DNA from: Anaerolineae bacterium
GTDB taxonomy: Bacteria; Chloroflexota; Anaerolineae; B4-G1
Direction of reading: 5' to 3'
NCBI GenBank assembly: GCA_046760785.1
Contig: JBHIET010000002.1
Location: forward strand, 17,052-81,051
DNA length: 64,000 bases
Positions within the stretch are counted from its first letter, which is position 1. Each line of letters starts with the position of its first letter. The notes beneath the pieces were generated by a model. The model was not told the origin of the DNA. It saw only the letters and a list, made by a program, of their open reading frames with translations, and did not search any database. Below, one piece after another: positions 1 through 29,530 of this stretch. The translations under genes were made by a program, and so were the position numbers.

Positions 1-3000
1 TCATCAGCCGCTGCCATATCTACGGCAACGGCGATGGTGTCCGCGTCGTGGATGGCGGCCTGACGCTGGAGCGCACGTGGGTCTACTCCAACACCGGCGA
101 CGGCGTGCAGGTGGAGGGCGGCGCTTATGCGCTGGATAACAACGTCATCGCTCACAACGCGGGGGCCGGCCTGCAGACGGCCAGTAGCAGCGGCGCTCTG
201 CGCCACAACACCTTCGCCCGCAACGGTGTTGCCGGCGCGGTCATCAGCAGCACGGCCCGCTTCACCAACACGATTTTCTACAGCCACACCACGGCCATCA
301 GCGTAGCAGCGGGCAGCACGGCTTACCTCTCGCACACGCTGTGGTACAGCTACACCAACCTCAGCGCCGGCCCGGGCACCCTCATCAGCAGCACCGGCGT
401 CTACAGCGCCCCGGCGTTCTATGATCCAGACGCGCTGGACTATCACATCCGGGTCGGTTCGGGCGCGATCAACGCCGGATTAGATACCGGGTTGAATGAG
501 GACATTGACGGGGACCCCCGGCCTCTCCTGGGCTTTGCCGACCTCGGCGCCGACGAGTTTGCGCTGGCGATCAGCAAGTGGGTGACCCCCAGCGCTGCCC
601 CCGGCGAGGTCATCACCTACGTCATCACACTGGAGGGGGAGGAGAGCGGCCTGGTGCTCACCGACACGCTTCACAGCCACCTGAGTTACACCGGCACGGT
701 GGCCTGTACGGTGGGGAGCTGCGGCTACCTGGCCGCGACCCGGGCCATCACCTGGACGGGCAGCATCTCGACCGCGCAACCGGCCTATATCACCTACACG
801 GCGCAGATCACCACCTGGCTGGCGGCCGGCGAGGAGGTGGTCAACGACGCCTGGGTGCAGACTGGTGGCGAGGTGCTCCACGTCCCCGAGGTGAGGACGA
901 CCATCCTGCCCATCACCGGCACCCGCTACGTGGCCCCGGCCGGCGAGGACGCGCAGAACAACTGCCGCATGGATTGGAAGCCGTGTGCCACGGTGCAGCA
1001 GGCGGTGGATCAGGCACTGGCGGGCGATACGGTGAAGGTGGCGCAGGGCACGTACACCGGCAGCGGCGCTAACGTGGTCTCCATCACCGAGTCCCTCACC
1101 TTGCAGGGCGGCTACACCACGACCAACTGGCTGGAGAGTGATCCCGTGGCTCGTCCCACCATTCTGGATGGAGAGGGCAGCCGGCGGGTCGTGCACATCA
1201 CCGGCCCGGTGACGGTGACGCTGGACGGGTTCCGTTTGATCAACGGCTTTGTCAACAACGGCGACGGCTCCGGTCTTTACGTTTACACGGCCACGGTCAC
1301 GCTGGCCAACGGCCGGGTGTACGGCAACCGCACGGACGGAGTTGGCAACGATGGCGGCGGTATCTACCAGGAGGGCGGCTCCCTCACCATCACCGCCACC
1401 CAGGTCTACAGCAATACCTCGGACGATGGCGATGGCGGTGGCCTCTACTATCGGGACGGCGAGTTCGCCTTGGTCGGTAGCCGGGTGTACAGCAACACCG
1501 CCGGCAGCGGCGGTGGTGGTCTCTACCTGCGCAGCGCCGACGTGACCCTCAGCGGCAACTACATCTACACCAACACGGCCACCGGTCTGGGTGGTGGGCT
1601 GTACGTCACCGGTCCTACCGCCCTCGACCTGACCAACAACGTCATCGCTGCCAACCAGGCGGGTTCGGGCGGTGGCGGCCTGTACTGCGATGGCGGCGGC
1701 AGCGGCTACCTGCGCCACACCACCATCGCCGAGAACGGTGTAGAAGGGTTGCGGGTCGGCGATTTCACCCTGGCGCTCACCAACACCATCTTGGTCAGTC
1801 ACACGGTGGGCATCACGACCTCGGCTGCCGGAGCAAGCGTCACCGCCAACTACACCCTGTGGGATGGCACCGGGGTCTATACCGACACCGCCGGCGGCGG
1901 CGCCATCACTACCGCCAATGACTTGACCGGCGCTCCGAAGTTCCTCGCTCCGGAGGCGCTGGATTACCACATCCGGGGCGACTCGGCGGCGTTGGACGCC
2001 GGCACCTGGGATGGCGTCGCCGAGGACATTGACGGCGACACCCGAACCGCCGCCCTGGTGGACGTCGGTGCCGACCAGTACCCGCTGCGGCTGGCCCGCT
2101 GGGTCAGCACCTCCTCCGCCGCCCCCTGTGAGGTGGTCACTCACACGCTGCGCCTTTCTAACCTGCGGGCCACTCCGTTGGCCGGCGTCGTGCTGGGCGA
2201 TCTGCTGGACGATGACGTGAGTTGGGCCGGCTTTGTCACGACCACTACAGGCAGCGCCGTCTACTCCTCCTCCCTACACACCGTCGGGTGGCTGGGCACC
2301 GTGCCCGCAGAGGGAGGGGAAGCGGTCTATATCACCTACACCGCCCGCATCACCCCCTACCTGACGAGCGGCACGCTGCTGACTCACGTGGCCGGTATCA
2401 GCGACCCCATCTCCATCTTTGGCACCCAGCCGATTACCGTGAGCGTGGCCACGTTGGAAGCCACGCTGGGCAAGAGCGCAGTGCTGACGGCTTCCCTCGG
2501 CCAGGTGGTGACCTACACAGTGGCCTTTACCGTCCCGGCAGGGCACGTGGCCCACGAGCCGACGGTGGTGGACGCGCTGCCGCGCCTGGTCACGGGAGGC
2601 GGTATCTCGACCACGCCGGCGCTGACCTACGTGGTGGGGAGTGGCAGCCCACCTCCAACTGCTCTCTCTGCCGACGGCACACTCACCTGGACGCTCTCGA
2701 CCGTCACCGCTACCTGTGACGCGGCCGAGGTGGTGACCGTCACCTTCGCCGCGCGGGTGCGCGGTCTGGCCGACAACGGCGACGGCGATTTGCTGACCAA
2801 CACAGTGACGCTCTCCTACACCGAGAGCTCGCCTACCGGCCCGGCCCACGTCCTGGTCAGGTCACACACGGCGACCCTCGTCGAGCCACAACCGGCCATC
2901 GTCAAGACGCTGCCTTTCACCACGAACCTCGGCTCCGGCGACTTGGTGACCGTTACCATCGTTGTCTCCAATACCGGCACGGGGGTTCTGTACGACCTAG

Positions 3001-4385
3001 TGGTGACTGACACACTGCCGGCTGCATTGGACTTTCGGAGCGCCACGCCCACCTACGTCCGCAACGGCGCGGCGATCACCTGGACGTTGGGCAGCCTGGG
3101 GGTGGATCAGCAACGGCTGTACACGATCACAGCCCGGGTCACGGAGACCGTAGGAGCCGGTGTACCGCTGACCAACACGGCCAGGGTGGAGGGCACTTCG
3201 CAACCCGGTGTGGTGGACGAGGAGCGGGCGTACTCAGACGGCGCTCTGGCCACGGCTACCACCGGCTATCCCGATCTACTCGTCAGCAAGAGCGGGCCGC
3301 CGGTGCGCTCCCCGCTTCAGACCATCGCTTACACTGTTGCCTACACCAACGTTGGCGTGGTACGGGCCGAGGGGGTGTGGATCACGGACACGCTGCCCAT
3401 CTCGCTGACTGGTGTGGTCTCTGCCACGTCGGCCGGGGCAGCGGTAGAGCACGTGGGGCAGGTCGTCACCTGGACGCTGACCGCCCCGGTGAGCCGGGGG
3501 GTGAGTGGCCGCATTTGGATCACAGCCACCGTCTCGCCGACGGTTCGTGAAGGGGATGTGCTGACCAACGTGGTATCCGTCGAGGTCGTCACGACGACGG
3601 AGCAGGTGTTGGGGAACAACAGCGGACTGGTTACGACTACCATCCAGATGCCGTCGCTGGTCATCACCAAGACGGCGCATCCCTCGCCGGTGAGACCAGG
3701 AAGCCTGCTGACCTACACCCTCACCATCTCCAATACCGGGTTGGGCGACGCGACCGGCCTGGTCGTCAGCGACACGGTGCCGCCGAACACCGCCTATCGG
3801 TGGTGCAGCGGCGGTGATACGTGCGCCCACAATGGCGATGTGGTCACCTGGACGTTGGCTTCTCTGGAGGCCGCTCAGCAGGCCCAGGTCTCCTTGACCG
3901 TGTTGGTGGATGATGATACCATCTCCGGCACGACCGTCCTGAACCAGGCGTATAGTGTTACCTGTGCTCAGGGGGTGATGGCTACCGGCGCGCCGTTGAG
4001 CACCACGGTGGCTCTGGTGAGGGGGGTGAGCCTGGAGCCTGCGACTCTTGGGGCTTCCGTCTCGCCTGGCGAAAGCGCCGTCTACACGCACACGCTGACC
4101 AATCTGGGCAACGCTGTGGCGACGTTCGATTTGGCAGTGAGCAGCCCGCCGCCGGGCTGGACTTTTAGTCTCGATCCGCCTGGGGCTATCGTGGACCTGG
4201 CTCCAGATAGCACGGCGTTCGTTGCGCTGACGGTGCAGGCTCCCTCCGGCGGTACCGGCCAGGCAGTGGCACTCATTACGGCCACCTGGCATGGCGCGCC
4301 GAGCGTATTTGCCACGGCGCAGGATACGACGACCATTGGCTATGCTTACATCTACCTGCCGCTGGCGCTGCGAAACTATCGCTGA
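1..4385 (+). CDS. Large secreted/cell-surface repeat protein with parallel beta-helix repeats and multiple DUF11-like repeats (5' partial). The reading frame is open to position 1, so the gene starts upstream of the window.
   Basis: Frame open upstream of the GTG at 48 and still encoding beta-helix-like repeats (CHIYGNGDGVRVVDGG). Two blocks of NosD/pectate-lyase-like PbH1 repeats (NNVIAHNAGAGLQ..., GDGSGLYVYTATVTLANG...). DIDGD motifs. Repeated TYTxxVSNTG.../LPxxL DUF11-like modules. C-terminal tail YIYLPLALRNYR. Confidence 0.75.
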   Translation, partial: ISRCHIYGNGDGVRVVDGGLTLERTWVYSNTGDGVQVEGGAYALDNNVIAHNAGAGLQTASSSGALRHNTFARNGVAGAVISSTARFTNTIFYSHTTAISVAAGSTAYLSHTLWYSYTNLSAGPGTLISSTGVYSAPAFYDPDALDYHIRVGSGAINAGLDTGLNEDIDGDPRPLLGFADLGADEFALAISKWVTPSAAPGEVITYVITLEGEESGLVLTDTLHSHLSYTGTVACTVGSCGYLAATRAITWTGSISTAQPAYITYTAQITTWLAAGEEVVNDAWVQTGGEVLHVPEVRTTILPITGTRYVAPAGEDAQNNCRMDWKPCATVQQAVDQALAGDTVKVAQGTYTGSGANVVSITESLTLQGGYTTTNWLESDPVARPTILDGEGSRRVVHITGPVTVTLDGFRLINGFVNNGDGSGLYVYTATVTLANGRVYGNRTDGVGNDGGGIYQEGGSLTITATQVYSNTSDDGDGGGLYYRDGEFALVGSRVYSNTAGSGGGGLYLRSADVTLSGNYIYTNTATGLGGGLYVTGPTALDLTNNVIAANQAGSGGGGLYCDGGGSGYLRHTTIAENGVEGLRVGDFTLALTNTILVSHTVGITTSAAGASVTANYTLWDGTGVYTDTAGGGAITTANDLTGAPKFLAPEALDYHIRGDSAALDAGTWDGVAEDIDGDTRTAALVDVGADQYPLRLARWVSTSSAAPCEVVTHTLRLSNLRATPLAGVVLGDLLDDDVSWAGFVTTTTGSAVYSSSLHTVGWLGTVPAEGGEAVYITYTARITPYLTSGTLLTHVAGISDPISIFGTQPITVSVATLEATLGKSAVLTASLGQVVTYTVAFTVPAGHVAHEPTVVDALPRLVTGGGISTTPALTYVVGSGSPPPTALSADGTLTWTLSTVTATCDAAEVVTVTFAARVRGLADNGDGDLLTNTVTLSYTESSPTGPAHVLVRSHTATLVEPQPAIVKTLPFTTNLGSGDLVTVTIVVSNTGTGVLYDLVVTDTLPAALDFRSATPTYVRNGAAITWTLGSLGVDQQRLYTITARVTETVGAGVPLTNTARVEGTSQPGVVDEERAYSDGALATATTGYPDLLVSKSGPPVRSPLQTIAYTVAYTNVGVVRAEGVWITDTLPISLTGVVSATSAGAAVEHVGQVVTWTLTAPVSRGVSGRIWITATVSPTVREGDVLTNVVSVEVVTTTEQVLGNNSGLVTTTIQMPSLVITKTAHPSPVRPGSLLTYTLTISNTGLGDATGLVVSDTVPPNTAYRWCSGGDTCAHNGDVVTWTLASLEAAQQAQVSLTVLVDDDTISGTTVLNQAYSVTCAQGVMATGAPLSTTVALVRGVSLEPATLGASVSPGESAVYTHTLTNLGNAVATFDLAVSSPPPGWTFSLDPPGAIVDLAPDSTAFVALTVQAPSGGTGQAVALITATWHGAPSVFATAQDTTTIGYAYIYLPLALRNYR

Positions 4386-4448: not shown

Positions 4449-5957
4449 TTGTCAGGTGAGGGGACTCGTTGGCAAGACCACAATCGCTATGTGAGCACTT
4501 TGGGGCGTGAGTACATCGTGAGGCACCGTTTGCTTTCCCGGTGGGGTGTTGTGGCCATCACGCTGCTTGCGGCGGTCCTGCGACTGACTCACCTGGGCAG
4601 CAAAAGCTTTTGGTTCGACGAGTGCTTCACCTATACGGTAACTCTGGCATCTCTCAAGGACAGCCTTTCTGCCCTGCTGGTGGCCGGTATTTACTCTCCC
4701 CTCTATTTCTTGCTGTTGCGCCCGGTAACGGCGCTGGCGGGCACCAGTGAGTATGCCTTTCGATTCCTCTCTGCTGCCTTTGGCCTGCTCGCCGTGCCGG
4801 TCATCTATCGCCTGGGTCTTTGCTTGACGGGGAGGGCCACGGGTGTGGTGGCCGCTCTTTTGCTGGCCCTCTGTCCGTTTCACATCTGGTACTCGCAGGA
4901 TGCGCGGACGTACGCACCGATGCTTTTCTTTGGCTTGCTGGCGATGGAGCGTTTTATCCTGCTGCTGCGCGGCCGGCGCAAGTGGGGCTCCTTTGCTCTG
5001 TGTAGCGCCCTGGCCTACCCGATGCATTATATTGCTTTTTCTCTGTTGTACGTTCAGTTGGTATATCTGGTGCCCCGTCTGCGCCAGACCAGGTTGGTAC
5101 GCCGTTGGTTCCTGGCACAGGTAGTGGCGGGAATGCCGCTGCTCCCTTGGTTGGTGCTCTACCTGGTGCGTGGGGTCCGGCCCGCCGGTTTGAGCTGGAT
5201 TCCCCGGCCCGGCCCTCTGGCTCCGCTCTATACTTTGTGGAACATGACTACGGGGGACGCGGAGACGTTCACGCTGCCGGTGGTGGTGCTGGCGCTGGGT
5301 GTGGGGGTGGTTTTCTGGCGTGGCCTGTTGTCCTGGGATCGGGCGCGCAGGTTGCTCGCTTGGTGGTTGGCGCTGCCAGTGGGGTTTCTGTTCCTCCTTT
5401 CGCTGCGGCGTCCCTTTTATGTGGACCGGTATCTCATGGCCAGCCTGCCGGCCTATTTGTTGCTTCTGGCACTGGGGATCGTGACCTGGCGTAAGGTGAC
5501 GTACCGGCTGTTGGCGGGGGCGGTCGTGGTGCTGGCATTGGGGTGGGGGACGTGCCGGTTGTACACTGACCCGTATTTTGCAAAGGAGGATTGGCGAGGC
5601 GCGGCTCTCGCCGTCGAGTCGGAGCTGGAGCGAGGGGACATCGTGGTGCTGGAGGATCCGGAGGCGTTGCTGGGGACGTCGGTTTACCGCACGCGGGAGT
5701 GGCCATACGTGGTTCTGGAGTCGGGGCGAGAGCGCGAGATGCTGGAGCAGGCGATGGCCCGGCACAGCCGGGCCTGGCTGGTGTGGCGCAGTCCCTACGA
5801 GTCCAACCATCGTCTGTCCAAGTCCGCCCCCTTTGACCTGTTTGCCGTGGCGCCCCCGTCAGTCCGGGCCTGGCTGGAAGCCCATCGGGATCGAGTGGGG
5901 CTCGACCTGCGGTTGCCGGGCCTGAGCGTGGTGCGGGTGGATGGAGGGGAACGATGA
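4449..5957 (+). CDS. Polytopic membrane glycosyltransferase, GT-C fold, ArnT/PMT-like (GT39/GT83-type). Start uncertain: TTG at 4449 or GTG at 4518.
   Basis: N-terminal TM followed by the LTHLGSKSFWFDE motif, the W-x-DE signature of ArnT/PMT-family lipid-linked sugar transferases. Many TM segments. Soluble C-terminal domain. Confidence 0.65.
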   Translation: MSGEGTRWQDHNRYVSTLGREYIVRHRLLSRWGVVAITLLAAVLRLTHLGSKSFWFDECFTYTVTLASLKDSLSALLVAGIYSPLYFLLLRPVTALAGTSEYAFRFLSAAFGLLAVPVIYRLGLCLTGRATGVVAALLLALCPFHIWYSQDARTYAPMLFFGLLAMERFILLLRGRRKWGSFALCSALAYPMHYIAFSLLYVQLVYLVPRLRQTRLVRRWFLAQVVAGMPLLPWLVLYLVRGVRPAGLSWIPRPGPLAPLYTLWNMTTGDAETFTLPVVVLALGVGVVFWRGLLSWDRARRLLAWWLALPVGFLFLLSLRRPFYVDRYLMASLPAYLLLLALGIVTWRKVTYRLLAGAVVVLALGWGTCRLYTDPYFAKEDWRGAALAVESELERGDIVVLEDPEALLGTSVYRTREWPYVVLESGREREMLEQAMARHSRAWLVWRSPYESNHRLSKSAPFDLFAVAPPSVRAWLEAHRDRVGLDLRLPGLSVVRVDGGER

Positions 5958-7093
5958 AAGGGCTGCGACCGATTCTCCTGCTTTTTCTGGCCTTTCGTCT
6001 GAGCCTGCTGGCCTTCTGGCCGGCCGATCAACTGGCCCGCTGGTCAGATTACGACTATTACTACGAGATCGCCGGTTGGGTGGAGCAGGGCCGGCTACCC
6101 TATCTCCACTACTGGGTCGAGTACCCGCCGCTGTTTCCTTACCTTTCGGTCCTGCTGTATCTGCTCGCGCCGCACTATGCGGCCTACGTGACCGGGCTGG
6201 CATTGGTGCAACTGGGTTTTGAGGCTGGCTCTTTGGTGCTGCTCTACCGGTTGGCCCGGCGGGTGGTGGGGGAGGAGCGGGCCGGCCGGGTGGCGTGGAC
6301 GTACGCACTGCTGTTCGCGCCGCTGGCGACCTGGTGGCTGAGTTTCGATGCCATCTCTATCTTCTTCCTGCTGCTGGCGGTCGAGCGGTGGCTGGCGGGC
6401 CGCCGGGTGCAGTCGGCGCTGGCGGTGGGTGCAGGCGGGCTGGTGAAGTGGTTGCCGTTGCTCTTCCTCCCTGTGGTTACCCGTTTCCGCCGGAGCTGGC
6501 GGGAGGCGGCAGGCTACGCGGCGGTAGCGCTGACCGTCGTCGGCTTGGTGCTGGGTTTGCTGGCCCTCCTCAGCCCGACGTACACCCTCGCCTCGCTCCG
6601 CTCGCTGGGGAGTCGTGCTTCCTGGCAGACGGTGTGGGCTTTGCTGGACGGGAACCTGGGGACAGGGGCCTACCAGGCCAGCCGCCTCGACCCCGCTGCT
6701 GCGACCCTCTCGCAGGGCAACCCGGCCCGCGTGCCGACGTGGCTTACCTTGCTCCTCTTCGGGGCGCTGTACCTGTGGCTGTGGTGGCGGACGCCTGGCA
6801 GGAAGGAACCCCGGTGCGTGCTCCGCTTCACTGCGCTGACCGTGCTGGTTTTCTTCCTCTGGTCACGGGGCTGGAGCCCCCAGTGGCTGGGGACGTTGGT
6901 GCCGCTGGTGTTGCTATCGCTTCCTCTGGAGCGGGCCACATTGTACCTGGTGGTGCTGACGTTCGTCAACATCGCCGAGTGGCCGGTGTTGCTTGGGCGG
7001 GGGATGAACGGGTGGCTGTGGGTGACGATCCCATTGCGCACTGGCCTTTTCCTCCTGCTGGCTGTAGAATTGTGGCAAAAGCTGCGAGAGTGA
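5954..7093 (+). CDS. Polytopic membrane protein, DUF2029/GT87-like putative glycosyltransferase
   Basis: ATG overlaps the upstream stop (ATGA). Motif DYDYYYEIAGW...LPY...WVEYPPLFPY resembles the D/Y..YPP signature of GT87/DUF2029 mannosyltransferase-like proteins. About 10 TM helices. Confidence 0.5.
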   Translation: MKGLRPILLLFLAFRLSLLAFWPADQLARWSDYDYYYEIAGWVEQGRLPYLHYWVEYPPLFPYLSVLLYLLAPHYAAYVTGLALVQLGFEAGSLVLLYRLARRVVGEERAGRVAWTYALLFAPLATWWLSFDAISIFFLLLAVERWLAGRRVQSALAVGAGGLVKWLPLLFLPVVTRFRRSWREAAGYAAVALTVVGLVLGLLALLSPTYTLASLRSLGSRASWQTVWALLDGNLGTGAYQASRLDPAAATLSQGNPARVPTWLTLLLFGALYLWLWWRTPGRKEPRCVLRFTALTVLVFFLWSRGWSPQWLGTLVPLVLLSLPLERATLYLVVLTFVNIAEWPVLLGRGMNGWLWVTIPLRTGLFLLLAVELWQKLRE

Positions 7094-7097
7094 GCCG

Positions 7098-8225
7098 TTG
7101 GTGAGCCATCCGATGAAAAAGGCAAAGCGTGCCGCTGTTTATACCGTGAAGCTTATGGCGTTGCCTGTGTTCCTGCTGGGTGGGATCGAGCTGGCGCTGC
7201 GGCTTTTCCTGGGGATGCCGGAGGGGCAGTTCTGCGCTTTGTTTCCGGGGCCTAACGGCCTCTACCCGCCCAACCGCCGCATGGTGGTGGACTTTGGCGT
7301 GGTGCCCTACGTCGTCGAGACCAACTCACTGGGCTTTCGCGGGCCGGAGATCAGTGTGCAAAAGCCGCCGGGCGTGTTTCGTATCGCCGCGTTGGGCGAC
7401 TCGATGACGGATGGCTTCTTTGTGGACAACGACGCCACCTTCCCTTATCTGCTCCAGCAGAACCTGGAGGCAGGGGGTTGGACCGTCGAGGTGGTCAACG
7501 CGGCCCACGGTGGCGGCACGATCGACACCCAGTACGCGATGCTCGAAGCGCACGTGCTACCGCTCGACCCGGACCTGGTGATTCTCACCTGGACGCCCAA
7601 CGACATCGGCGACCTGATGACCGGAACGCCCACTCAAATGCCGGGGCAGGGTTTCACCTCGGGACCTCGGGCGGCGCTAGGGTGGCTGGCCTGCCACTCG
7701 GCCATCAGCGAGGGGCTGCTGGATGTGTACTTTCGTAGCCTTTCGGACAAGTACCGCTGGTTGACCCGCCAGAGCGGCGAGATCATCCTCGACGATCGGC
7801 GTTACCAGGTCCCCGGCAGCACCGACTTTGCCCGGAACGCGCAGTACACGCTGGCCGGTGACGCGGAGGCGGACGGGCAGATTCTCGTCGAGCCGTTCAC
7901 CCCGGCCACAGAAGCGGCGATTCAGACCTATCTGGAGTGGTTGGGCCGTATGGAGCGGGTGCTGCGCGAGCGCGGGATTCGGTTCGTGTTCGTCTACCTC
8001 CCGGCCTACTCGCAGGTGTACCTGCCGGGCAGCTCGATGCGCATACGAGATATCCTGCGCGACGAGTGCGCGCGACTGGAGGTGCCCTTTCTCGATCTGA
8101 CGCCCGTGTTCCAGGAGAGAGGCCAGGAGCGGGCATTGGATATGGCTCCCCTGGATTACCACCTCAGTCCCTATGGCAATCAGGTTGTGGCCGATGCACT
8201 GGCCGATTTCCTGTCGGCAAAGTGA
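7098..8225 (+). CDS. SGNH/GDSL-family hydrolase with N-terminal membrane anchor (possible ATG start at 7113)
   Basis: Block I motif IAALGDSMTDG (GDS-x). N-terminal hydrophobic segment. Embedded in the glycosyltransferase array, so possible O-acyl modification. Confidence 0.7.
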   Translation: MVSHPMKKAKRAAVYTVKLMALPVFLLGGIELALRLFLGMPEGQFCALFPGPNGLYPPNRRMVVDFGVVPYVVETNSLGFRGPEISVQKPPGVFRIAALGDSMTDGFFVDNDATFPYLLQQNLEAGGWTVEVVNAAHGGGTIDTQYAMLEAHVLPLDPDLVILTWTPNDIGDLMTGTPTQMPGQGFTSGPRAALGWLACHSAISEGLLDVYFRSLSDKYRWLTRQSGEIILDDRRYQVPGSTDFARNAQYTLAGDAEADGQILVEPFTPATEAAIQTYLEWLGRMERVLRERGIRFVFVYLPAYSQVYLPGSSMRIRDILRDECARLEVPFLDLTPVFQERGQERALDMAPLDYHLSPYGNQVVADALADFLSAK

Positions 8226-9439
8226 TTCGGGCGGGTGAGATTTTCTGGAAAAGAGCGGTGTCCCGACGAGTGTCCTTGCTGATTCTGCTTGCGTTGGCTC
8301 TGTTTGCGCTGAACGCCTGGCTGGTGTACGCGCTCTTTACCTCGCGTGCCTCCATCGCCGTGTGGGATTTTCACCCCCGTTGGGTGGGGTTACGCGCGAT
8401 GTTGCGCGATGGGGCGGACCCGTACAGTGAGGAGGTGACGCTGGCGATCCAACGGCAGATGCTGGGCCGGCCCGCCCGCCCGGACGAGGATCAGGAGGCT
8501 TTTGCCTATCCGCTGCACGTGATGGTGCTCATCGGCCCACTGACCCTCTTGCCGTTGCCGGTGGCGCAGGCTTTGTGGTTTTCGCTGCTTGAGACCGGCC
8601 TGCTGCTCTTTATCTTTTTCGCGCCCCGTGCCGTCGGTTGGCGCCCTACTCCCCGGCTGCTGGCGTTGACTGCGCTCTTCACTCTGGGGCTGTATTCCAC
8701 CGTGTGGGCGCTGATTCTGGGGCAGACCTCTATCGTGGTGGCCGCCCTCATCGCGCTGGCGTGGTGGGGGCTGCGGGTCGGACGATGGGGGCTGGCCGGG
8801 GCCTGCCTGGCACTGGCGACGATCAAGCCCCAGATGACCTTTTTGCTGGTGCCGGGCCTGCTGGCCTGGGCGGTCTACCGGCGGCAACTGCGGCTGCTGG
8901 TCGTCTTCTCTGTGATCTTGGGCGGATTGGTCCTGCTGCCTGTCCCCTGGTTGCCGACCTGGCCGCTGGCGTGGTTGGCGGCGGCCGGTCGCTACGCCAG
9001 CTATACCGCTTTCGATCCACCTCTGGTGCTGCTGACGTGCTCCACCTGGTTAGCGGGCCTGGTCGCTGCCCTGCTGCTGGGCTGGACCGTGTACCGCTGG
9101 TGGCGTGCGGAGCGACGGAGAGATGCTTTTAATTGGGGACTGAGCATGCTCCTCGTCGTCAGCGGGTTGATCGCTCCACGCACCAGTCACGTCAATCAAC
9201 TGGTGTTGTTGTTGCCTCTCTTTTTCCTCTTCAAGCGGCTGTCAAAGGGGGGGATTGTCGCCGTCGTGGAAGCCGGGCTGCTGGCCGGGCCGTGGCTGCT
9301 GGACTGGGGGCTGGCTCCTCTCTTGGGTAGCTTGCAACACAGAGTGTGGCAGAACCAGTTCATCAGCCCCATCTTGCCGGTTGGATTGGCCCTGGCGTTG
9401 GTGTGCTTCAGTCCGTGGTCAGCGCGGGGAATGGATTAA
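8222..9439 (+). CDS. Polytopic membrane protein, DUF2029/GT87-like putative glycosyltransferase
   Basis: GTG start overlapping the upstream stop (GTGA). DF..W..LRAML.DGADPYS...FAYPLH pattern similar to the 5954 paralog. About 10 TM segments. Confidence 0.5.
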   Translation: MIRAGEIFWKRAVSRRVSLLILLALALFALNAWLVYALFTSRASIAVWDFHPRWVGLRAMLRDGADPYSEEVTLAIQRQMLGRPARPDEDQEAFAYPLHVMVLIGPLTLLPLPVAQALWFSLLETGLLLFIFFAPRAVGWRPTPRLLALTALFTLGLYSTVWALILGQTSIVVAALIALAWWGLRVGRWGLAGACLALATIKPQMTFLLVPGLLAWAVYRRQLRLLVVFSVILGGLVLLPVPWLPTWPLAWLAAAGRYASYTAFDPPLVLLTCSTWLAGLVAALLLGWTVYRWWRAERRRDAFNWGLSMLLVVSGLIAPRTSHVNQLVLLLPLFFLFKRLSKGGIVAVVEAGLLAGPWLLDWGLAPLLGSLQHRVWQNQFISPILPVGLALALVCFSPWSARGMD

Positions 9440-11922
9440 TGGGCTACTGCTGTTATTCTCTGAAGCGCCTCAACCTTGTCGTGACCATCGCGGTCGTTCT
9501 GGTTCAAACGGTAGGGGCCTACTTTTTCGGCAGCGGTTTCGACTTCGCTCTCTTCCGTGAGGCGACGTTGGACCACAACCCTTATGTCTGGCTCCCAGCG
9601 TATGGGTACTGGTTGCTCCGGCCGATTATGCTGCTTCCTTCTCGTCTTTCCCTGATCATAATAGTTCTTATCTCCTCTAGCTTGATGGCTTACACCGGGT
9701 ACAAGCTCACTGGAAGTGGGCTTCCGGCTTTACTCTCTTCAGCAGGTTTCCTCTCGGCGGAGACGGGTCAGATAGACGGCTTCGTCGCGTTGGGGCTGGT
9801 CTTGGGAGTCTTGGCCTGCGAACGACGGAAGCCTCACTTGCTGGGGGGCGCGCTTCTGTTGATGTCCCTGAAGCCGCACATTACCCTGGTCGCGGCCGTG
9901 TGGCTGATTGTGTACCTGCGCGATTGGCGCACGCTCCTGATCCCGGCGGGCGTATTCTTGCTCTCTCTGCTCACGGATGGGTTGTGGCCACTGGGTTTGC
10001 TCCAATCCCCGCCTCACGTTACCATGGTACCGCATAACATCTCGCTGTGGAGGCTCTGCGGCCCGTCTCTTCTTCCTTTGCTGGCCTTGCCTTTTCTGTT
10101 CGGTAGGCGCGATCCCCGGCGCGCGGTGACGCTGGCCGTCGCTGCGTCTGCTCTGGCGATGCCTTACTACAATTTCTACAGCCTGGACGTACTCTTCGGT
10201 GTGGGCGTTTCTCCCTGGCTGGTCCCTCTGACCTATATCCCGTTCCTGCCCTGGCCGGCGCAGTGGGAAGCCTGGCACGTCCTCGTATTGGCGTTCGTCC
10301 CGGCCCTGGGGCTGATCCTGCTGCTGGTGCGGCAGCGCTCTGGGTGGCGACGCTCTCGGTGGCTTCGGAGTTGGTACCGGCCGCTGCTGATCCTGCTGAC
10401 AGCGTTTCTGGCGCGGACGATCCACCTGCAGGGCCGCGCACTCTGGTACGACGAGTCCTTCGCCGCCCTGTACGCCTCTTTGAGTCCCGGCCAGATGATC
10501 TACGGCACGGTGGCGCCGGTGGCAGGGGCCGGCGCGGCCGACGTCCATCCCCTGCTCTACTACTTCCTGCTCCATGGCTGGATGGGGTTGGTGGGCCACT
10601 CTCCCCTGGCGCTGCGTTTCCTCTCTGTGGCTTTGGGCATGATCGCCGTGGCCCTGCTCTGGCGGCTGGCGGCCTGGTGCTTTGGTCGTCGGACGGGTTT
10701 GGTGGTGGGGTTGCTGGCGGCGGTGAACCCCTTCCACGTGGCCTACTCTCAGGAGGCACGGATGTACGGGTTGCTGGGCCTGGCGGCAGTGACAGCGGCT
10801 TGGGGGTTGCTGCGAGCACTGGAGGGCGCAGAGGAGCAAGGGACAACACGCAACACGCAACACGCAACACGCGACACGTTTCACGTTCTTGGTCATTGGT
10901 CATTGTTCATTGTGGGAGCTGCCCTCACCCTCTACGCCCACAACCTGGGTGCCTTTGTCCTGCTGGCTTTCCATCTGTTGGTCGTCGTCCGCCGCCGCTG
11001 GTGGCGTCGCCTGCCGGCCCTGGCCCTGGCCGACCTGGCCGCGCTGGCCCTCTTCGGTCCTTGGCTGGTGCTGGTGTTGCCGGGGCAGGTGGGTTTTGTG
11101 GGAAGAGGGTATTGGCTGACGCCGCCGGGCGTTGAGGAGGCGGTTCGTGCCATCATGCTCCCGCTCCTCACCTTCTACGAGCCTGCGCCGCTATGGCTCC
11201 TGGGGTTGAGCCTCTTCACAGGCGTGTTGCTCCTGACCCTGCTGATCCTGCGGCTCTGGCGGACCCGCTCGCGGGCCGGTTGGTTCCTCTTGCTGTGCTG
11301 GGTGCCGATCTTGCTCATCCTGCTCGCCTCCCTCTGGCGACCGGTCTACCTGGAGCGGGCACTGTTGCCCTCGGAGCTCTTTTATCTGGTGTCGGTGGGA
11401 TGGCTCCTGGCGCGGGGAGGGCTGCCGCGTCTCTTGCGCCTGGCGCTCGCGCTGCTGCTGGCGCTGGCGACACTGGGAGCGCTGGGGGTTCACTATACCT
11501 ACGCTCGTTTCCCCCGCCCCCCATTCGCCCGGCTGACCGCCTTTCTGCGGGAGAGAGTGACTCACGGGGAGGTGGTGGTCCACGACAACAAACTCACCTT
11601 CTTCCCGGCTCACTATTATGACCCCGCGCTGCCCCAAACTTTCTGCCCCGATCTGCCCGGCAGCGGCTCGAACACGCTGGCGCTGCCCACCCAAGAGGCA
11701 TTGGGGCTCTTTGCCACCCCCATCAGCCAGACGGTGGCCAGCGGGGTGACGGGGGTGTGGTACGTGGCCTTTGACCGCACCTGGGAGGAGTATCGCGTCC
11801 TGGGCTACGCCGACGCGCCCAACCGGACCTGGCTGCGTGCCCGCTGCCACCGGGAGGGGGAGGTGCACACGATCGCCGATCTGGAGATCTACCACTTTGC
11901 GAATTGTGAGGCAGAGCCGTGA
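9439..11922 (+). CDS. Two-domain polytopic membrane glycosyltransferase: N-terminal DUF2029-like domain fused to a C-terminal ArnT/PMT-like GT-C domain
   Basis: ATG at 9439 overlaps the upstream TAA by 1 nt (TAATG). First ~300 aa carry DFALFREATLDHNPYVW (DUF2029-like). Second half carries RTIHLQGRALWYDESFAALY (W-x-DE ArnT/PMT motif). Contains an in-frame heptamer repeat tract at 10844-10913. Confidence 0.6.
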   Translation: MGYCCYSLKRLNLVVTIAVVLVQTVGAYFFGSGFDFALFREATLDHNPYVWLPAYGYWLLRPIMLLPSRLSLIIIVLISSSLMAYTGYKLTGSGLPALLSSAGFLSAETGQIDGFVALGLVLGVLACERRKPHLLGGALLLMSLKPHITLVAAVWLIVYLRDWRTLLIPAGVFLLSLLTDGLWPLGLLQSPPHVTMVPHNISLWRLCGPSLLPLLALPFLFGRRDPRRAVTLAVAASALAMPYYNFYSLDVLFGVGVSPWLVPLTYIPFLPWPAQWEAWHVLVLAFVPALGLILLLVRQRSGWRRSRWLRSWYRPLLILLTAFLARTIHLQGRALWYDESFAALYASLSPGQMIYGTVAPVAGAGAADVHPLLYYFLLHGWMGLVGHSPLALRFLSVALGMIAVALLWRLAAWCFGRRTGLVVGLLAAVNPFHVAYSQEARMYGLLGLAAVTAAWGLLRALEGAEEQGTTRNTQHATRDTFHVLGHWSLFIVGAALTLYAHNLGAFVLLAFHLLVVVRRRWWRRLPALALADLAALALFGPWLVLVLPGQVGFVGRGYWLTPPGVEEAVRAIMLPLLTFYEPAPLWLLGLSLFTGVLLLTLLILRLWRTRSRAGWFLLLCWVPILLILLASLWRPVYLERALLPSELFYLVSVGWLLARGGLPRLLRLALALLLALATLGALGVHYTYARFPRPPFARLTAFLRERVTHGEVVVHDNKLTFFPAHYYDPALPQTFCPDLPGSGSNTLALPTQEALGLFATPISQTVASGVTGVWYVAFDRTWEEYRVLGYADAPNRTWLRARCHREGEVHTIADLEIYHFANCEAEP
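10844..10913. repeat. Ten-unit heptanucleotide tandem repeat tract (CAACACG x4, CGACACG, TTTCACG, then TCATTGG/TCATTGT units) lying in-frame inside the GT-C gene
   Basis: Read directly: caacacg caacacg caacacg caacacg cgacacg tttcacg ttcttgg tcattgg tcattgt tcattgt. Encodes the low-complexity peptide TTRNTQHATRDTFHVLGHWSLFIV between TM segments. Confidence 0.8.
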
Positions 11923-13574
11923 GTTGGGAAGTCTCGTGGAAGGAATACCGCTGGGCGGCGGCGGTCGCCTTGGTGGTGGTGGCTCTCTCTACCATCCCGT
12001 ATGCCGCCGGTTACCTGGCCCAGACTCCTGACCTGCGCTTTGCCGGAGCCGTTTTCGATCTGGAGGATTATCACAGCCACCTGGCCAAGATGTGGCAGGG
12101 ATACTGGGGGGAGTGGCGCTACCGGCTGCTCTTTACCTCCGAGGAGCACGAGGGTGCGTATCTGCAGACGTTCTACGTGGCGTTGGGCCATTGTGCACGA
12201 CTGCTGGGATTGGGCCTGCCGCTCACCTACCACCTGGCACGGGTTGTGGCGGGCGTGGTGCTCCTGCTGACCGTCTACCGCTTCGTCGCGCTCTTCACCG
12301 CCGGGGAGGTGCGGAGCGTTGCCTTCCTGCTGGCGGCCACCTCTTCCGGCCTGGGATGGCTGGTCGAGGGGCTGTGCCCCACGCCGCCGGGTGGGATCTC
12401 CCCCATTGATTTCTGGCTCATTGACGCCTACACCTTCTTTTCCCTGTTCACCTTTCCCCATTTCTCCGCTGCCGTCGCGCTCTTACTTTCGCTGTACGGG
12501 ATGCTGCTGCGGTTGGCGGAAGGTGTGTCGCCTGGAAGCGTGCCACGTTTGCGAGATGTGGTGGCAGTGATTCTCCTATCCTGGGGATTGGGCCTCGTCC
12601 ACCCCTATGCCCTGCTCCTGGCCGACCTGGTTCCGGCGCTCTATCTGATCTGGCGCACCGTCGTGGAACGACGATTGCCCCTGCGCCTGCTGCTCGCCCT
12701 GGTTGCGATGGGACTGGCCCAGGCACCGCTCCTGCTGTACGACTACCGCGTCTTTGCCACCTCACCTGTCTTTGGTGCCTGGTCTGCTCAGAACCTCACC
12801 CTCTCTCCGCCTCCTCTGCACTACCTCCTGGGTTACGGCGTCGTGGCGCTGCTGGCAGCGTGGGGAGTTCGTTCGGCCCTCCGGGCTTCCCGACGCGTTC
12901 CGTTCCTGCTTCTGTGGGTTGTTGTCGCCTTCTCTCTGGCGTACTTTCCCTGGGGGTTGCAGCGCCGCTTCGTCGAGGGCCTCCACGCGGGGTTGTGCGT
13001 GCTGGCGGGGTACGGACTGGTGGAGGGGCTGCTGCCCGTGTTGGCCCGACCACTGGGGCGGCTGGCCCGTCTCCTGCACTACAGTCCCCGGCGGCTGCGC
13101 TGGTTGGCGCGGGGGCTGGTCCTGGCGCTGGCCGCTCTCTCCAATCTCTACCTGATCGCCACCTACACGCTGGCGGCAGCGGCCTGGCACCCGGACCTGT
13201 TTCACTCTGCCGATCAAGTCGCAGCCGGGGAGTGGCTAGCGGCCAACACCGAATGGCAGGAGACGGTGCTGGCTGCTTATGAAACCGGCAATTGGCTCGC
13301 CGGGACCATCGGTCGCCGGGTAGTGCTGGGCCACTGGGCGGAGACGATGGATTGTGAGGCGAAGCGGGAGCAGGTGGCAGCCTTCTACTCGGAGGGCGCG
13401 TCTGAGGCGGAGCGGCGCGGGTTGTTGGAGCGATGGAACGTGCACTACGTCTACCTTGGCCCGGAGGAGCGGGCGCTGGGTGGGTTCGATCCAGCAATGA
13501 CCTCATACCTGAAGCTGGTGTTCCAGCAGGGGGATGCATCGGTCTACCGGGTGACGCTGGAGGGGGCACCGTGA
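11919..13574 (+). CDS. Polytopic membrane protein of the same array (GT-C-like, family not recognised)
   Basis: GTG start overlapping the upstream stop (GTGA). At least 12 predicted TM helices. Soluble C-terminal ~120 aa domain. Positioned between ArnT-like paralogs. Confidence 0.45.
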   Translation: MSWEVSWKEYRWAAAVALVVVALSTIPYAAGYLAQTPDLRFAGAVFDLEDYHSHLAKMWQGYWGEWRYRLLFTSEEHEGAYLQTFYVALGHCARLLGLGLPLTYHLARVVAGVVLLLTVYRFVALFTAGEVRSVAFLLAATSSGLGWLVEGLCPTPPGGISPIDFWLIDAYTFFSLFTFPHFSAAVALLLSLYGMLLRLAEGVSPGSVPRLRDVVAVILLSWGLGLVHPYALLLADLVPALYLIWRTVVERRLPLRLLLALVAMGLAQAPLLLYDYRVFATSPVFGAWSAQNLTLSPPPLHYLLGYGVVALLAAWGVRSALRASRRVPFLLLWVVVAFSLAYFPWGLQRRFVEGLHAGLCVLAGYGLVEGLLPVLARPLGRLARLLHYSPRRLRWLARGLVLALAALSNLYLIATYTLAAAAWHPDLFHSADQVAAGEWLAANTEWQETVLAAYETGNWLAGTIGRRVVLGHWAETMDCEAKREQVAAFYSEGASEAERRGLLERWNVHYVYLGPEERALGGFDPAMTSYLKLVFQQGDASVYRVTLEGAP

Positions 13575-16638: not shown

Positions 16639-16640
16639 GG

Positions 16641-17756: not shown

Positions 17757-17763
17757 AGATAGG

Positions 17764-19221: not shown

Positions 19222-19222
19222 T

Positions 19223-22525: not shown

Positions 22526-22538
22526 GGAGCGAGCAACC

Positions 22539-23462: not shown

Positions 23463-23489
23463 GTCGAGTTTGGGGGTGGAGGAGGACAT

Positions 23490-24185
23490 TTGGCAAACGT
23501 AGAATCTCGGATCCGCGAGCGCTTTGACGATGTCTCGCAGGATCGGGAGACCTTTCCGGCCCACGTTGAGCCGGATGATTTTGAGTGGCTGGCGGTAAAG
23601 CGGGCGCTTGGCCTTTCGACAGGGGCAAAGGTGCTGGACGCCGGGTGTGGGCGGGGGCGCTTTAGTCGAGCGTTGGCTGGTGAGGGGGCGCGGGTGGTGG
23701 GGGTGGACCTTTCGCACCGCTTGACGCGCGCGGCGGCGCAATTGGGCGGGGATTTTTGCCAGGCGAGCGTCACCAGGTTGCCGTTTGCGGCGGAAAGCTT
23801 CGACGCGGTCGTGTGCGTGGAGGTGCTCGAGCACGTGCCCGATGTCCCGACCGCGCTGGCAGAGATGGCGCGCGTCTTGTGCCGAGGGGGCAAAGCCGTC
23901 GTCGTGGATAAGAGCCTCTGCTCTCTGCATCCCCGCTTCTTGTTGCCCTCGGCCCTGGTCAAGTTTGTGATGGAGCGTGCCAACCGTTGGATGTATCCCA
24001 GTGGCTTTGAGTTTGCCGAGATTTGGTTTGTGCCCCGCGTTCTGTCTCGCCAACTGAGGATGCACTTCTCAGGCGTCGAGGTGTGCTATTTGCATTACAC
24101 CTATCGCAAGTGGCGCGCCAGAGGCTGGATCACGCGCCTTCTGCCGTTCTTGAGTATGTACGTGGCGTGGGTGGCGGAGAAGTGA
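23490..24185 (+). CDS. Class I SAM-dependent methyltransferase
   Basis: VLDAGCGRGRFSRALAGEGARVVGVDLS motif I/II. TTG start with GGAGGAGG RBS. Confidence 0.8.
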   Translation: MANVESRIRERFDDVSQDRETFPAHVEPDDFEWLAVKRALGLSTGAKVLDAGCGRGRFSRALAGEGARVVGVDLSHRLTRAAAQLGGDFCQASVTRLPFAAESFDAVVCVEVLEHVPDVPTALAEMARVLCRGGKAVVVDKSLCSLHPRFLLPSALVKFVMERANRWMYPSGFEFAEIWFVPRVLSRQLRMHFSGVEVCYLHYTYRKWRARGWITRLLPFLSMYVAWVAEK

Positions 24186-28650: not shown

Positions 28651-28682
28651 GCTCTAAAGTCTCAGTGGCCAGGAGGTGAGAG

Positions 28683-29513: not shown

Positions 29514-29530
29514 ATGGCACAAATTAGCGG

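What the first reader, a model, noticed from the sequence alone, without database searches (positions are those of the whole stretch)
4338..4385. Shared C-terminal tail YIYLPL-x2-RN-x on two unrelated large secreted proteins: candidate sorting/anchoring tag
The DUF11/beta-helix protein ends …IGYAYIYLPLALRNYR*. The beta-propeller protein 37 kb away ends …RFKYIYLPLVFRNH* (41019-41051). The preceding domains are unrelated. Identical spacing of Y-I-Y-L-P-L-(A/V)-(L/F)-R-N-(Y/H) at the extreme C-terminus of two signal-peptide proteins looks like a short C-terminal recognition motif. It differs from LPXTG, PEP-CTERM and GlyGly-CTERM in having no following TM helix or basic tail. The vWA-TadG protein ends with a weaker relative (…IFLRLVH).
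Basis: seen in the sequence. Interest (0 to 1): 0.6.

Follow-up and report, generated by a model that had tools for sequence, protein, structure and literature searches.

The report
YLP-box C-terminal tag on secreted proteins
Two unrelated large secreted proteins of an Anaerolineae (Chloroflexota) genome end in the same ~10-residue tail, which is a real, lineage-wide C-terminal tag that NCBI already catalogues as the "YLP-box putative sorting motif", although no one has yet shown what reads it or what it does.

Summary
The ORF ending at 4385 finishes GYAYIYLPLALRNYR*, and the ORF ending at 41051 finishes RFKYIYLPLVFRNH*.

The tail is not chance, not a DNA repeat and not the last strand of a shared domain:
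- It is kept in about 70 of 75 homologues of the propeller protein. Where extra PKD domains are appended, it moves to the new C-terminus.
- A DNA-pattern scan of species genomes found YIYLPLV[LM]RN plus 0-5 residues plus stop at the ends of long ORFs, almost only in Anaerolineae/Thermoflexia/Chloroflexota contigs.
- Its codons vary synonymously.
- It follows at least 20 different Pfam domain types.
- Most complete carriers have Sec signal peptides.
- AlphaFold2 leaves it unstructured in both window proteins.

NCBIfam already holds two tiny models for it, NF050076 and NF053834 ("YLP-box putative sorting motif", "ultrashort_CTERM"). Protein 2 passes NF053834. Protein 1 has an LPLALR variant and matches neither. 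No paper, reader enzyme or mechanism was found.

Best reading: a C-terminal surface-sorting or retention tag without a transmembrane helix, read as a linear peptide outside the membrane. The claimed "weaker relative" on TadG is rejected. Protein 1's signal peptide cannot be checked because its 5' end lies outside the window.

The parts
4338..4385 (+). YLP-box tail of protein 1 (GYAYIYLPLALRNYR plus TGA). The core Y-L-P-L-A-L-R is at 4353-4373.
   Evidence: AF2 gives pLDDT below 50 and no secondary structure for the last 11 residues. The same LPLALR variant occurs in homologues P0076 and P0091. No NCBIfam hit at E<=10.
3..4385 (+). Protein 1: a large surface-adhesin-like protein cut off at its 5' end by the window start. 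It has beta-helix regions, DUF11/DUF7507/DUF7927 isopeptide-type Ig repeats and a NEW3-like Ig domain, then the tail.
   Evidence: AF2 models the last 260 aa as two confident Ig-like domains ending 13 residues before the stop.
41007..41051 (+). YLP-box tail of protein 2 (RFKYIYLPLVFRNH plus TAG). The core Y-L-P-L-V-F-R is at 41022-41042.
   Evidence: NF053834 ultrashort_CTERM scores 13.8 bits against a cut-off of 10 on the 30-aa tail. AF2 residues 465-479 have pLDDT below 50.
39612..41051 (+). Protein 2: an exported sialidase-like beta-propeller. It equals P0001, NCBI 'hypothetical protein ACE5OS_00560, Anaerolineae bacterium', 479 aa with a non-ATG start at 39612. It is a conserved member of the Tad pilus locus.
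   Evidence: AF2 mean pLDDT is 83, with the propeller at residues 40-458. Foldseek top hits are sialidase/pseudaminidase propellers at TM about 0.45. Synteny.
39612..39716 (+). N-terminal signal peptide or signal anchor of protein 2 (MTKLRGRRQGAMAVLAGGLAAALTAMLMAVALA|AP).
   Evidence: The sequence shows a basic n-region, a hydrophobic core and an A-L-A site. AF2 predicts a helix at residues 12-33. The cleavage site is inferred, not predicted by a dedicated tool.
34836..51276 (+). Context of protein 2, the Tad/Flp pilus locus: Flp pilin 34836-34991, giant TadE-like protein 35638-39546, protein 2, a 203-aa membrane protein 41216-41827, TadE 41824-42573, TadG/VWA 42800-45049, RcpC 45346-46428, TadZ-like 46512-47855, then ATPase and TadB/C by synteny.
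   Evidence: The same gene order occurs around homologues P0022 and P0053 in L001-L007.
4449..32747 (+). Context of protein 1: a cell-envelope glycan biosynthesis cluster immediately downstream. It holds GT-C PMT_2/GT87 enzymes, an SGNH protein, Bac_transf, a UDP-GlcNAc 2-epimerase, a flippase, GT2/GT4 enzymes, TagA/WecG and a Wzy_C+TPR protein. No link to the tail has been shown.

Best explanation
Both tails are instances of the YLP-box. This is an ultrashort C-terminal tag with consensus [VIL]-[YF]-[LM]-P-[LV]-[VIT]-[ML]-[RK], usually followed by 0-5 more residues. In this sub-lineage it reads YIYLPLV[LM]RNxx. It marks Sec-exported, multidomain surface proteins of Anaerolineae/Thermoflexia (Chloroflexota).

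Proposed mechanism:
1. The protein crosses the membrane through Sec, and its N-terminal signal peptide is removed.
2. The tail stays flexible and exposed just beyond the last folded domain.
3. A still unidentified extracytoplasmic reader recognises it as a linear peptide, not as a free C-terminus and not as a membrane span.
4. It either docks the tail non-covalently, or cleaves within LP-x-[V/T]|[L/M]-[R/K] and transfers the protein to an envelope acceptor, as sortase does.

Shown here: the motif, its modularity, its position, its taxonomic range, its exported carriers and its unstructured state. Inferred: the sorting or retention function, the existence of a reader, and cleavage.
For: 1. Conservation independent of the domain. 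About 70 of 75 homologues of protein 2, at 32-48% identity, keep the tail. In 15 homologues with appended PKD domains, the tail sits after the PKD domain.
2. Genome scan with TAYATCTAYYTNCCNYTNNNNNNNMGNAAY.
   - In Chloroflexota-labelled contigs, 45 of 55 matches have a stop 0-5 residues after the Asn, and 41 of these end long ORFs.
   - In other phyla 12 of 63 do, and only 2 of those end a long ORF (L053, L094).
   - The two codons the pattern left free encode V (43/46) and L/M (39/46).
3. Selection acts on the peptide. Leu is encoded by CTG/CTC/TTG/CTA/CTT and Arg by all six codons. The two window tails differ at synonymous sites.
4. Further, unseeded tails lie on neighbouring genes in L015, L046, L049, L053, L058, L081, L083, L105 (two) and L124.
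5. The preceding domains are diverse: DUF11, PKD, BACON_2, CARDB, FG-GAP, He_PIG, Big_5, TSP_3, Beta_helix, Peptidase_S8 and Dockerin. In total 53 Pfam families occur among 49 C-terminal segments.
6. 24 of 29 complete carriers have a classic n-h-AXA signal peptide, and none has a lipobox.
7. AF2 gives pLDDT below 50 and no secondary structure for the tail in both window proteins, next to confidently folded domains.
8. The tail occupies the slot used by other anchors.
   - Carriers hit the choice-of-anchor Q/D/T/V/U models and the myxosortase-, rhombosortase- and LPXTG-dependent peptidase models.
   - DUF11 homologues from other lineages end in PNTA or AHTG, then a transmembrane helix, then RRRR.
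   - Protein 2 weakly matches a lipoprotein family, NF053835.
9. NCBIfam curates the motif as 'YLP-box putative sorting motif': 27/49 segments hit NF050076 and 8/49 hit NF053834.
10. Tails never end before the R/K, but they tolerate 0-20 further residues or a whole extra domain. This fits a groove or active site reading an internal peptide.
Against: - No reader, protease or ligase was found. Neighbours of 56 carrier loci recur only as response regulators, ECF sigma factors, a secreted TPR protein, an MBL-fold protein and a small 100-aa protein. NCBIfam and Pfam scans of 33 ORFs, about two thirds of the window's likely genes, found no sortase-like or tag-associated family.
- No transmembrane helix holds the substrate at the membrane. 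A sortase-like step would therefore need another way to capture it.
- 8 of 55 strict matches are internal and followed by a folded domain. That is unusual for a sorting signal.
- There are no experimental data and no publication.
- Protein 1's tail falls below both NCBIfam models.
- The HMM scores are tiny, so single hits carry little weight on their own.
Confidence: 0.6

Rival explanations
1. The tail is a processing, quality-control or export-competence signal rather than an anchor. For example, it could be a site where a C-terminal propeptide or extra domain is trimmed, a degron for exported proteins that fail to fold, or a tag for a second export step through an outer sheath or S-layer.
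For: Internal copies followed by a 150-310 aa domain look like domain-junction or cleavage sites. R/K is always present, as expected for a P1 or P2' residue. The carriers have Sec signals, so any additional step would take place outside the membrane.
Against: The usual leaving group would be only 0-5 residues, which is hard to explain as a propeptide. The carriers are typical anchored adhesins and enzymes whose homologues elsewhere carry true anchors. No associated protease was found nearby.
Confidence: 0.2
2. The tail is a docking peptide specific to the Tad pilus machinery. It would attach accessory proteins to the pilus or to the giant TadE-like protein.
For: Protein 2 and its tail are conserved at a fixed position in the Tad locus in every context examined.
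Against: Most carriers, including protein 1 and dozens of loci from the genome scan, are not next to tad genes. Several tail genes sit in tandem without any pilus genes.
Confidence: 0.07
3. The tail is structural: the last beta-strand, or an edge-strand cap, of a shared C-terminal Ig-like domain.
For: Many carriers end in Ig-like domains, and the residues before the tail often look like a beta-strand.
Against: AF2 leaves the tail unmodelled in both proteins. It also follows beta-helix, TSP3, propeller and S8 peptidase ends. It relocates when PKD domains are appended. No Pfam domain model covers it.
Confidence: 0.05
4. The tail is chance similarity, or the by-product of a DNA-level element at gene ends such as a repeat, terminator or mobile-element scar.
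For: The motif is short. A terminator-like hairpin follows protein 1.
Against: The hairpin lies about 40 nt beyond the stop and outside the tail codons. Codons vary synonymously. There is strong positional and taxonomic enrichment.
Confidence: 0.01

Closest known systems
NCBIfam NF053834 (ultrashort_CTERM) and NF050076 (sort_motif_YLP), 'YLP-box putative sorting motif-containing protein'
   Same: It is the same motif in the same register, at the extreme C-terminus of exported Chloroflexota proteins. Protein 2 scores above the NF053834 cut-off. 27 of 49 and 8 of 49 related carriers hit the two models.
   Different: Protein 1's LPLALR variant matches neither model. The models are labelled 'putative'. 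No reader, mechanism or paper was found.
LPXTG cell-wall sorting signal and sortase (monoderm bacteria)
   Same: It is a C-terminal tag on Sec-exported adhesin-like proteins, including isopeptide-type DUF11/RrgB-like repeats. It has an L-P core, a beta-branched residue (V or T) two positions later, and then a basic residue. Homologous DUF11 proteins in other lineages carry sortase-type signals in the same slot.
   Different: There is no T-G and no transmembrane helix after the motif, and only one basic residue. Often just 0-5 residues follow. No sortase gene was seen in the DNA examined. Cleavage and transpeptidation are purely inferred.
Tripartite CTERM signals read by intramembrane enzymes: PEP-CTERM/exosortase, PGF-CTERM/archaeosortase, GlyGly-CTERM/rhombosortase, MYXO-CTERM/myxosortase
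   Same: It is a lineage-restricted C-terminal tag found on many unrelated exported proteins per genome. Carriers hit 'choice-of-anchor' families defined by such tags.
   Different: Those signals need a hydrophobic span of about 20 residues plus an Arg-rich cluster (established knowledge; Haft preprint 10.1101/2023.06.07.544157). Here the hydrophobic run is at most 9 residues, so an intramembrane enzyme cannot be reading a membrane-embedded substrate.
Type IX secretion C-terminal domain and the PorU sortase
   Same: It is a C-terminal signal without a transmembrane helix, processed outside the cytoplasmic membrane, and it leads to surface attachment.
   Different: The T9SS C-terminal domain is a folded beta-sandwich of about 80 residues in diderm Bacteroidota. 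The YLP-box is about 10 unstructured residues in Chloroflexota.

Membership tests
YLP-box putative sorting motif (NCBIfam NF053834 / NF050076) | HMM score at or above the curated cut-off (10 bits for NF053834, 15 bits for NF050076): protein 2 | tested here: met
   NF053834 scores 13.8 bits (E 0.045) on the last 30 aa and 12.7 bits on the last 50 aa. It is not reported when the full-length protein is scanned at E<=1. NF050076 gives no hit.
YLP-box putative sorting motif (NCBIfam NF053834 / NF050076) | HMM score at or above the curated cut-off: protein 1 | tested here: not met
   Neither model hits at E<=10 on the last 30 or 50 aa. By eye the tail has Y-L-P-L-A-L-R in register, with Ala in place of the consensus Val/Ile. 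A home-made tail HMM ranks it second in the window at 5.3 bits. Homologues P0076 and P0091 share the LPLALR variant. It is filed as a divergent member on the basis of the motif, not the model.
YLP-box putative sorting motif (NCBIfam NF053834 / NF050076) | Motif lies at the extreme C-terminus | tested here: met
   3 residues follow the Arg in protein 1 and 2 residues in protein 2. The modal value in relatives is 2.
YLP-box putative sorting motif (NCBIfam NF053834 / NF050076) | Carrier is exported (N-terminal signal peptide) | tested here: inconclusive
   Protein 2 has a basic n-region, a hydrophobic helix at residues 12-33 and an A-L-A site, judged by a heuristic only. Protein 1's N-terminus lies outside the window. 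24 of 29 complete carriers elsewhere have such signals.
LPXTG / sortase sorting signal | LPXTG-type pentapeptide | tested here: not met
   The tails read LPLAL and LPLVF, with no Thr-Gly.
LPXTG / sortase sorting signal | Hydrophobic membrane-spanning segment and a cluster of basic residues after the motif | tested here: not met
   Only 5-6 residues follow the Pro before the stop. The hydrophobic run is at most 9 residues.
PEP-CTERM / GlyGly-CTERM / MYXO-CTERM class | Signature motif, then a transmembrane helix, then an Arg-rich tail, with a matching NCBIfam CTERM model | tested here: not met
   No such model hit either window protein at E<=1, or their 30- and 50-residue tails at E<=10, or ranked among the 25 families most often matched by the 49 carrier segments at E<=1. 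There is no transmembrane helix.
T9SS C-terminal domain | Folded beta-sandwich C-terminal domain of about 80 residues | tested here: not met
   AF2 leaves the last 11-15 residues unstructured. The preceding domains are a propeller or Ig domains of other families.
Outer-membrane beta-signal | Terminal aromatic residue closing a beta-barrel | tested here: not met
   The last residues are R and H. The carriers are propeller and Ig folds, not barrels.

The most novel reading that the evidence does not exclude
The YLP-box defines a surface-sorting pathway of a new mechanistic type in Chloroflexota. In this reading, an extracytoplasmic enzyme or receptor reads a 7-10-residue peptide that has no transmembrane helix. 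Candidates include a divergent sortase-like transpeptidase cutting LP-x-[V/T]|, a secreted TPR reader, or a Wzy_C/PglL-like ligase.
Probability: 0.35. Interest if true: 0.75.

Novelty: new member of a known kind. Interest (0 to 1): 0.45.

Why it matters
Chloroflexota are abundant in sediments, sludge and hot springs, and their cell envelope is poorly understood. A tag shared by dozens of giant adhesins and enzymes per genome is the best available handle on how these filaments display surface proteins.

All characterised prokaryotic C-terminal sorting signals of this size class rely on a membrane span. A functional tag of about 10 residues without one would imply a different capture mechanism. 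It could also become a compact display or ligation tag for engineering.

The motif is already catalogued by NCBI, so the value here is not discovery. This work adds evidence on modularity, positional tolerance, the unstructured state, the link to the Tad locus, and the LPLALR variant that the curated models miss.

Tried and rejected
- Exact-product look-ups for protein 2 failed with three alternative starts, including P0001 itself.
- A protein search with the tail alone was impossible: the minimum query is 40 aa and max_evalue is capped at 10.
- The first DNA pattern had only 13 fixed bases, so the Ile codon was fixed to ATC. This biases the scan toward GC-rich genomes.
- Literature searches for YLPLV-type strings, 'YLP-box', 'ultrashort CTERM' and Chloroflexota sorting signals returned nothing relevant. 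The Haft myxosortase preprint does not mention the motif.
- All ORFs in 56 carrier blocks were clustered to look for a recurrent neighbour enzyme. The only recurrent neighbours were LuxR-type response regulators, ECF sigma factors, a secreted TPR protein with an MBL-fold gene (3 loci, possibly a single synteny), and a 100-aa cytoplasmic protein. No candidate protease or sortase appeared.
- The 203-aa membrane protein next to protein 2 was checked as a possible sortase. It has no TLxTC-type motif and no family hit.
- The TadG '...IFLRLVH' tail was rejected as a relative of the motif.
- The idea that the tail is terminator-encoded was rejected.
- The Wzy_C+TPR protein (30252-32747) was considered as a reader by analogy with PglL/PilO and with TPR peptide receptors. 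There is no evidence beyond proximity, so this is left as speculation.
Full report
**1. The observation**

The + strand ORF that runs off the 5' end of the window and stops at 4383-4385 ends ...TTTIGYAYIYLPLALRNYR*. The ORF stopping at 41049-41051 ends ...GGGGPRFKYIYLPLVFRNH*.

- Protein 1 contains right-handed beta-helix regions and DUF11/DUF7507/DUF7927 isopeptide-type Ig repeats.
- Protein 2 has no Pfam hit. AlphaFold2 models it as a confident beta-propeller, mean pLDDT 83, residues 40-458. Its nearest solved folds are sialidase/pseudaminidase propellers at TM about 0.45.

Several window-level checks support the observation:
- No other long ORF in any frame has LP[LIVMA]xx[RK] in its last 15 residues.
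- With [YF][LM]P[LVI]xx[RK], ORFs of at least 200 aa give 3 internal matches (in TadC-like, GT87 and one other ORF) and 2 C-terminal matches. The internal rate predicts 0.055 C-terminal matches.
- A 9-column HMM built from tails of other proteins ranks these two C-termini first and second among 554 window ORFs.

**2. It is a conserved, modular tag**

Protein 2 equals P0001, an NCBI 'hypothetical protein' of an Anaerolineae MAG. Of its 75 homologues (32-48% identity), about 70 end in x-[YF]-[LM]-P-[LV]-[VIT]-[ML]-[RK] followed by a few residues.

In 15 homologues that have gained PKD domains after the propeller, the tail sits after the PKD domains. Examples are ...ETIYSVYLPLVMKEGL and ...EVIYGVYLPLVMR.

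In the family alignment the Pro is invariant and the Leu before it nearly so, while the linker varies.

Over 79 tails from two searches (selected by a regex that fixes the Pro and the R/K):
- Tyr or Phe precedes [LM]-P in 71 of 79.
- R (66) or K (13) closes the core.
- 0-20 residues follow, with a mode of 2.
- Asn after the Arg occurs in only 12 of 79. The 'RN' of the window is therefore a sub-lineage habit.

**3. Distribution**

My own calculation for equal base frequencies expects about 70 chance matches in 596 Gb.

| Contig label | Matches | Stop 0-5 residues after Asn | Of those, ending a long ORF |
|---|---|---|---|
| Anaerolineae, Anaerolineales, Thermoflexia/Thermoflexales, Chloroflexota | 55 | 45 | 41 (up to more than 2,400 aa within the block) |
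| All other labels | 63 | 12 | 2 (L053 and L094, high-GC contigs that look like mis-binned or unlabelled Chloroflexota) |

Further points from the scan:
- The two codons the pattern left free encode Val in 43/46 and Leu/Met in 39/46 of the Chloroflexota C-terminal cases.
- Synonymous codons vary freely: five Leu codons and six Arg codons. The conservation is therefore at the peptide level, not the DNA level.
- Several MAGs gave 2-3 hits each, even with this narrow pattern and the truncated output.
- A relaxed search of the same blocks found additional, unseeded tails on neighbouring genes in L015, L046, L049, L053, L058, L081, L083, L105 (two) and L124.

**4. What the carriers are**

The last 260 residues of 49 non-redundant carriers match 53 different Pfam families. 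These include DUF11 (10), PKD (10), BACON_2 (5) and CARDB (3), plus FG-GAP, He_PIG, Big_5, TSP_3, Beta_helix, Cadherin, Peptidase_S8 and Dockerin. The residues just before the tail are the ends of quite different folds, for example ...D[IV]GA[YD]E of beta-helices...DWLDPHY of TSP3-like repeats, and Ig strands.

Of 29 complete carrier ORFs, 24 begin with a classic Sec signal: a basic n-region, a hydrophobic core and an AXA site. None has a lipobox.

**5. The tail is not part of the fold**

In protein 2, AF2 gives pLDDT below 50 and no secondary structure for residues 465-479, and the last propeller strand ends at 458. In the last 260 residues of protein 1, two Ig-like domains are confident, the last strand ends at residue 247, and residues 250-260 (IYLPLALRNYR) have pLDDT below 50.

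Neither is met.

**6. It is already catalogued**

Scanning the 49 carrier segments against NCBIfam 20.0 gave two relevant models:

| Model | Name | Positions | Cut-off (bits) | Segments hit |
|---|---|---|---|---|
| NF050076.1 | sort_motif_YLP | 11 | 15 | 27 of 49 |
| NF053834.1 | ultrashort_CTERM | 10 | 10 | 8 of 49 |

Both are described as 'YLP-box putative sorting motif-containing protein'.

- Protein 2's tail scores 13.8 bits on NF053834. Protein 1's tail hits neither model at E<=10.
- Full-length scans missed both tails. This probably explains why NCBI calls P0001 'hypothetical'.
- I found no paper on the motif. The Haft preprint on new CTERM signals does not mention it.
- The kind is therefore known to curators, is labelled 'putative', and has no published mechanism or reader.

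**7. Evidence that the slot is an anchor slot**

- Carriers hit Haft's 'choice-of-anchor' Q, D, T, V and U models. They also hit peptidase models named for myxosortase, rhombosortase or LPXTG dependence.
- Homologues of protein 1's DUF11 region from other lineages, including a Limnocylindria MAG, end in classic tripartite signals. Examples are ...PNTAL...(transmembrane helix)...RRRR and ...AHTGE...(transmembrane helix)...RRR. Anaerolineae homologues end in YLP-boxes: AIYLPLALRNYR, VYIYLPLIVRRY, YVYLPLALR.
- Protein 2 contains a PDLAV motif and weakly matches 'PDIAV motif-containing lipoprotein' NF053835. Relatives elsewhere may therefore be anchored by an N-terminal lipid.

**8. Context in the window**

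Protein 2 is a fixed member of a Tad/Flp pilus locus. The gene order is:
1. LuxR-type regulator and histidine kinase.
2. 51-aa Flp pilin (34836-34991).
3. 1,302-aa TadE-like protein.
4. Protein 2.
5. 203-aa membrane protein.
6. TadE.
7. TadG/VWA.
8. RcpC.
9. TadZ-like protein.
10. ATPase.
11. TadB/C.

. The same order surrounds homologues P0022 and P0053 in seven metagenome loci.

Protein 1 is followed, after a terminator-like hairpin, by a long envelope-glycan cluster. The cluster includes TagA/WecG, a UDP-GlcNAc 2-epimerase, Bac_transf, GT-C enzymes and a Wzy_C+TPR protein.

None of the 33 window ORFs scanned with Pfam or NCBIfam resembles a sortase or carries a YLP-associated name. About a dozen likely genes, mainly at 54772-63922 on the minus strand, were not scanned.

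**9. Mechanism**

Shown here:
- The tag is exposed and flexible, about 10 residues long, and sits on Sec-exported surface-type proteins.
- It is under strong peptide-level selection across classes of Chloroflexota.
- It is independent of the preceding domain.
- It has no membrane span.
- It always includes the R/K, yet tolerates 0-20 extra residues.
- In 8 of 55 strict cases a whole extra domain follows it (L035, L043, L045, L058, L079, L099, L102, L111).

This tolerance argues against recognition of a free carboxylate at a fixed distance, as in PDZ, Tsp or PTS1-type readers. It favours a groove or active site reading an internal linear peptide.

Inferred: a reader outside the membrane retains these proteins at the surface. 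It could do so by non-covalent docking, or by cleavage within LP-x-[V/T]|[L/M]-[R/K] with transfer to an envelope acceptor. The L-P core, the beta-branched residue (sometimes Thr, as in LPLTMR and LPVTMR), and a minimal leaving group of two residues are compatible with a sortase-like reaction, but nothing here demonstrates one.

No recurrent neighbour enzyme was found. A secreted TPR protein of about 270 aa lies next to giant carriers in L028, L035 and L077, and the window has a Wzy_C+TPR protein. Both are only weak leads.

**10.

- The TadG ending ...ERIFLRLVH is conserved as such in TadG homologues (...ERIFLRLIH and ...QRIFLRLIQ) and lacks Y-L-P. It is not a relative of the motif.
- Protein 1's signal peptide cannot be verified within the window.

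**Verdict**

The finding is real and well supported, and its interpretation matches an existing NCBIfam entry. It is not a new kind of feature. The open and interesting question is what reads a sorting tag that has no membrane span.

Noticed in passing
window 34836-34991 (+): A 51-aa ORF, MSEVLFLPREEGQGLVEYALILVLVAIVV..., with a typical Flp-pilin G/xxxxEY processing motif. It corresponds to the 48-aa gene at the same position in L001-L007.
   Followed up: partly
window 35638-39546 (+): An unusually large (1,302 aa) TadE-like protein. A minor-pilin N-terminus is fused to TSP3-like, CARDB and GH115_C-like regions. Homologues of about 1,040 aa occupy the same position in L001-L007.
   Followed up: partly
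L035, L043, L045, L058, L079, L099, L102, L111 (motif positions): Perfect YIYLPLV[LMVT]RN boxes that are not terminal. They are followed by a further domain of 150-310 aa (CARDB-like, propeller-like or CBM-like) without a second box. The typical terminal extension RNY[PG]P reads straight on into the extra domain.
   Followed up: partly
P0092, P0094, P0108, P0101: DUF11 homologues of protein 1 from other lineages, including a Limnocylindria MAG, end in classic tripartite signals...PNTA... or ...AHTGE..., then a transmembrane helix, then RRRR. Different Chloroflexota classes therefore seem to use different anchors for the same adhesin type.
   Followed up: no
L028 4885-5703 (-), L035 3-812 (+), L077 1583-2473 (+): A secreted or lipoprotein-like TPR protein of about 270 aa lies directly beside giant YLP-box proteins in three MAGs. 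In two of them it is paired with an MBL-fold gene. It could be a conserved synteny or a candidate tail reader.
   Followed up: partly
window 4449-32747 (+): A long envelope-glycan cluster with the teichoic-acid-like pair TagA/WecG (27853-28647) and UDP-GlcNAc 2-epimerase (16572-17756). It also holds several GT-C (PMT_2/GT87) membrane glycosyltransferases and a Wzy_C+TPR protein (30252-32747). PMT_2-like genes also precede the Tad locus in L001/L002.
   Followed up: partly
window 39759-39773 (+) (protein 2 motif PDLAV): Protein 2 weakly matches NF053835 'PDIAV motif-containing lipoprotein' (35.7 bits, below the cut-off of 90). That accession is adjacent to NF053834 ultrashort_CTERM. The two models may stem from the same curated analysis of this propeller family.
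   Followed up: no
P0099, P0103: Two proteins with PD40-type domains end ...SYLPTIQRNLVITR and ...LYLPTIQRSYVITP. This may be a diverged YLP-box variant (LP-T-I-Q-R) with a longer extension.
   Followed up: no
window 4421-4440 (+): A terminator-like GC-rich hairpin with a weak T-run lies about 40 nt after protein 1's stop. It separates protein 1 from the glycan cluster.
   Followed up: partly
P0015, P0021, P0028, P0066-P0071: Some propeller homologues carry 13-20 extra, Arg/Lys-rich residues after the box, for example ...YLPFVAKAHHGATAALHATTSRRPGAR and ...FMPVIMRNAVGFSRNNLKDR. This resembles a basic tail without a membrane span.
   Followed up: no
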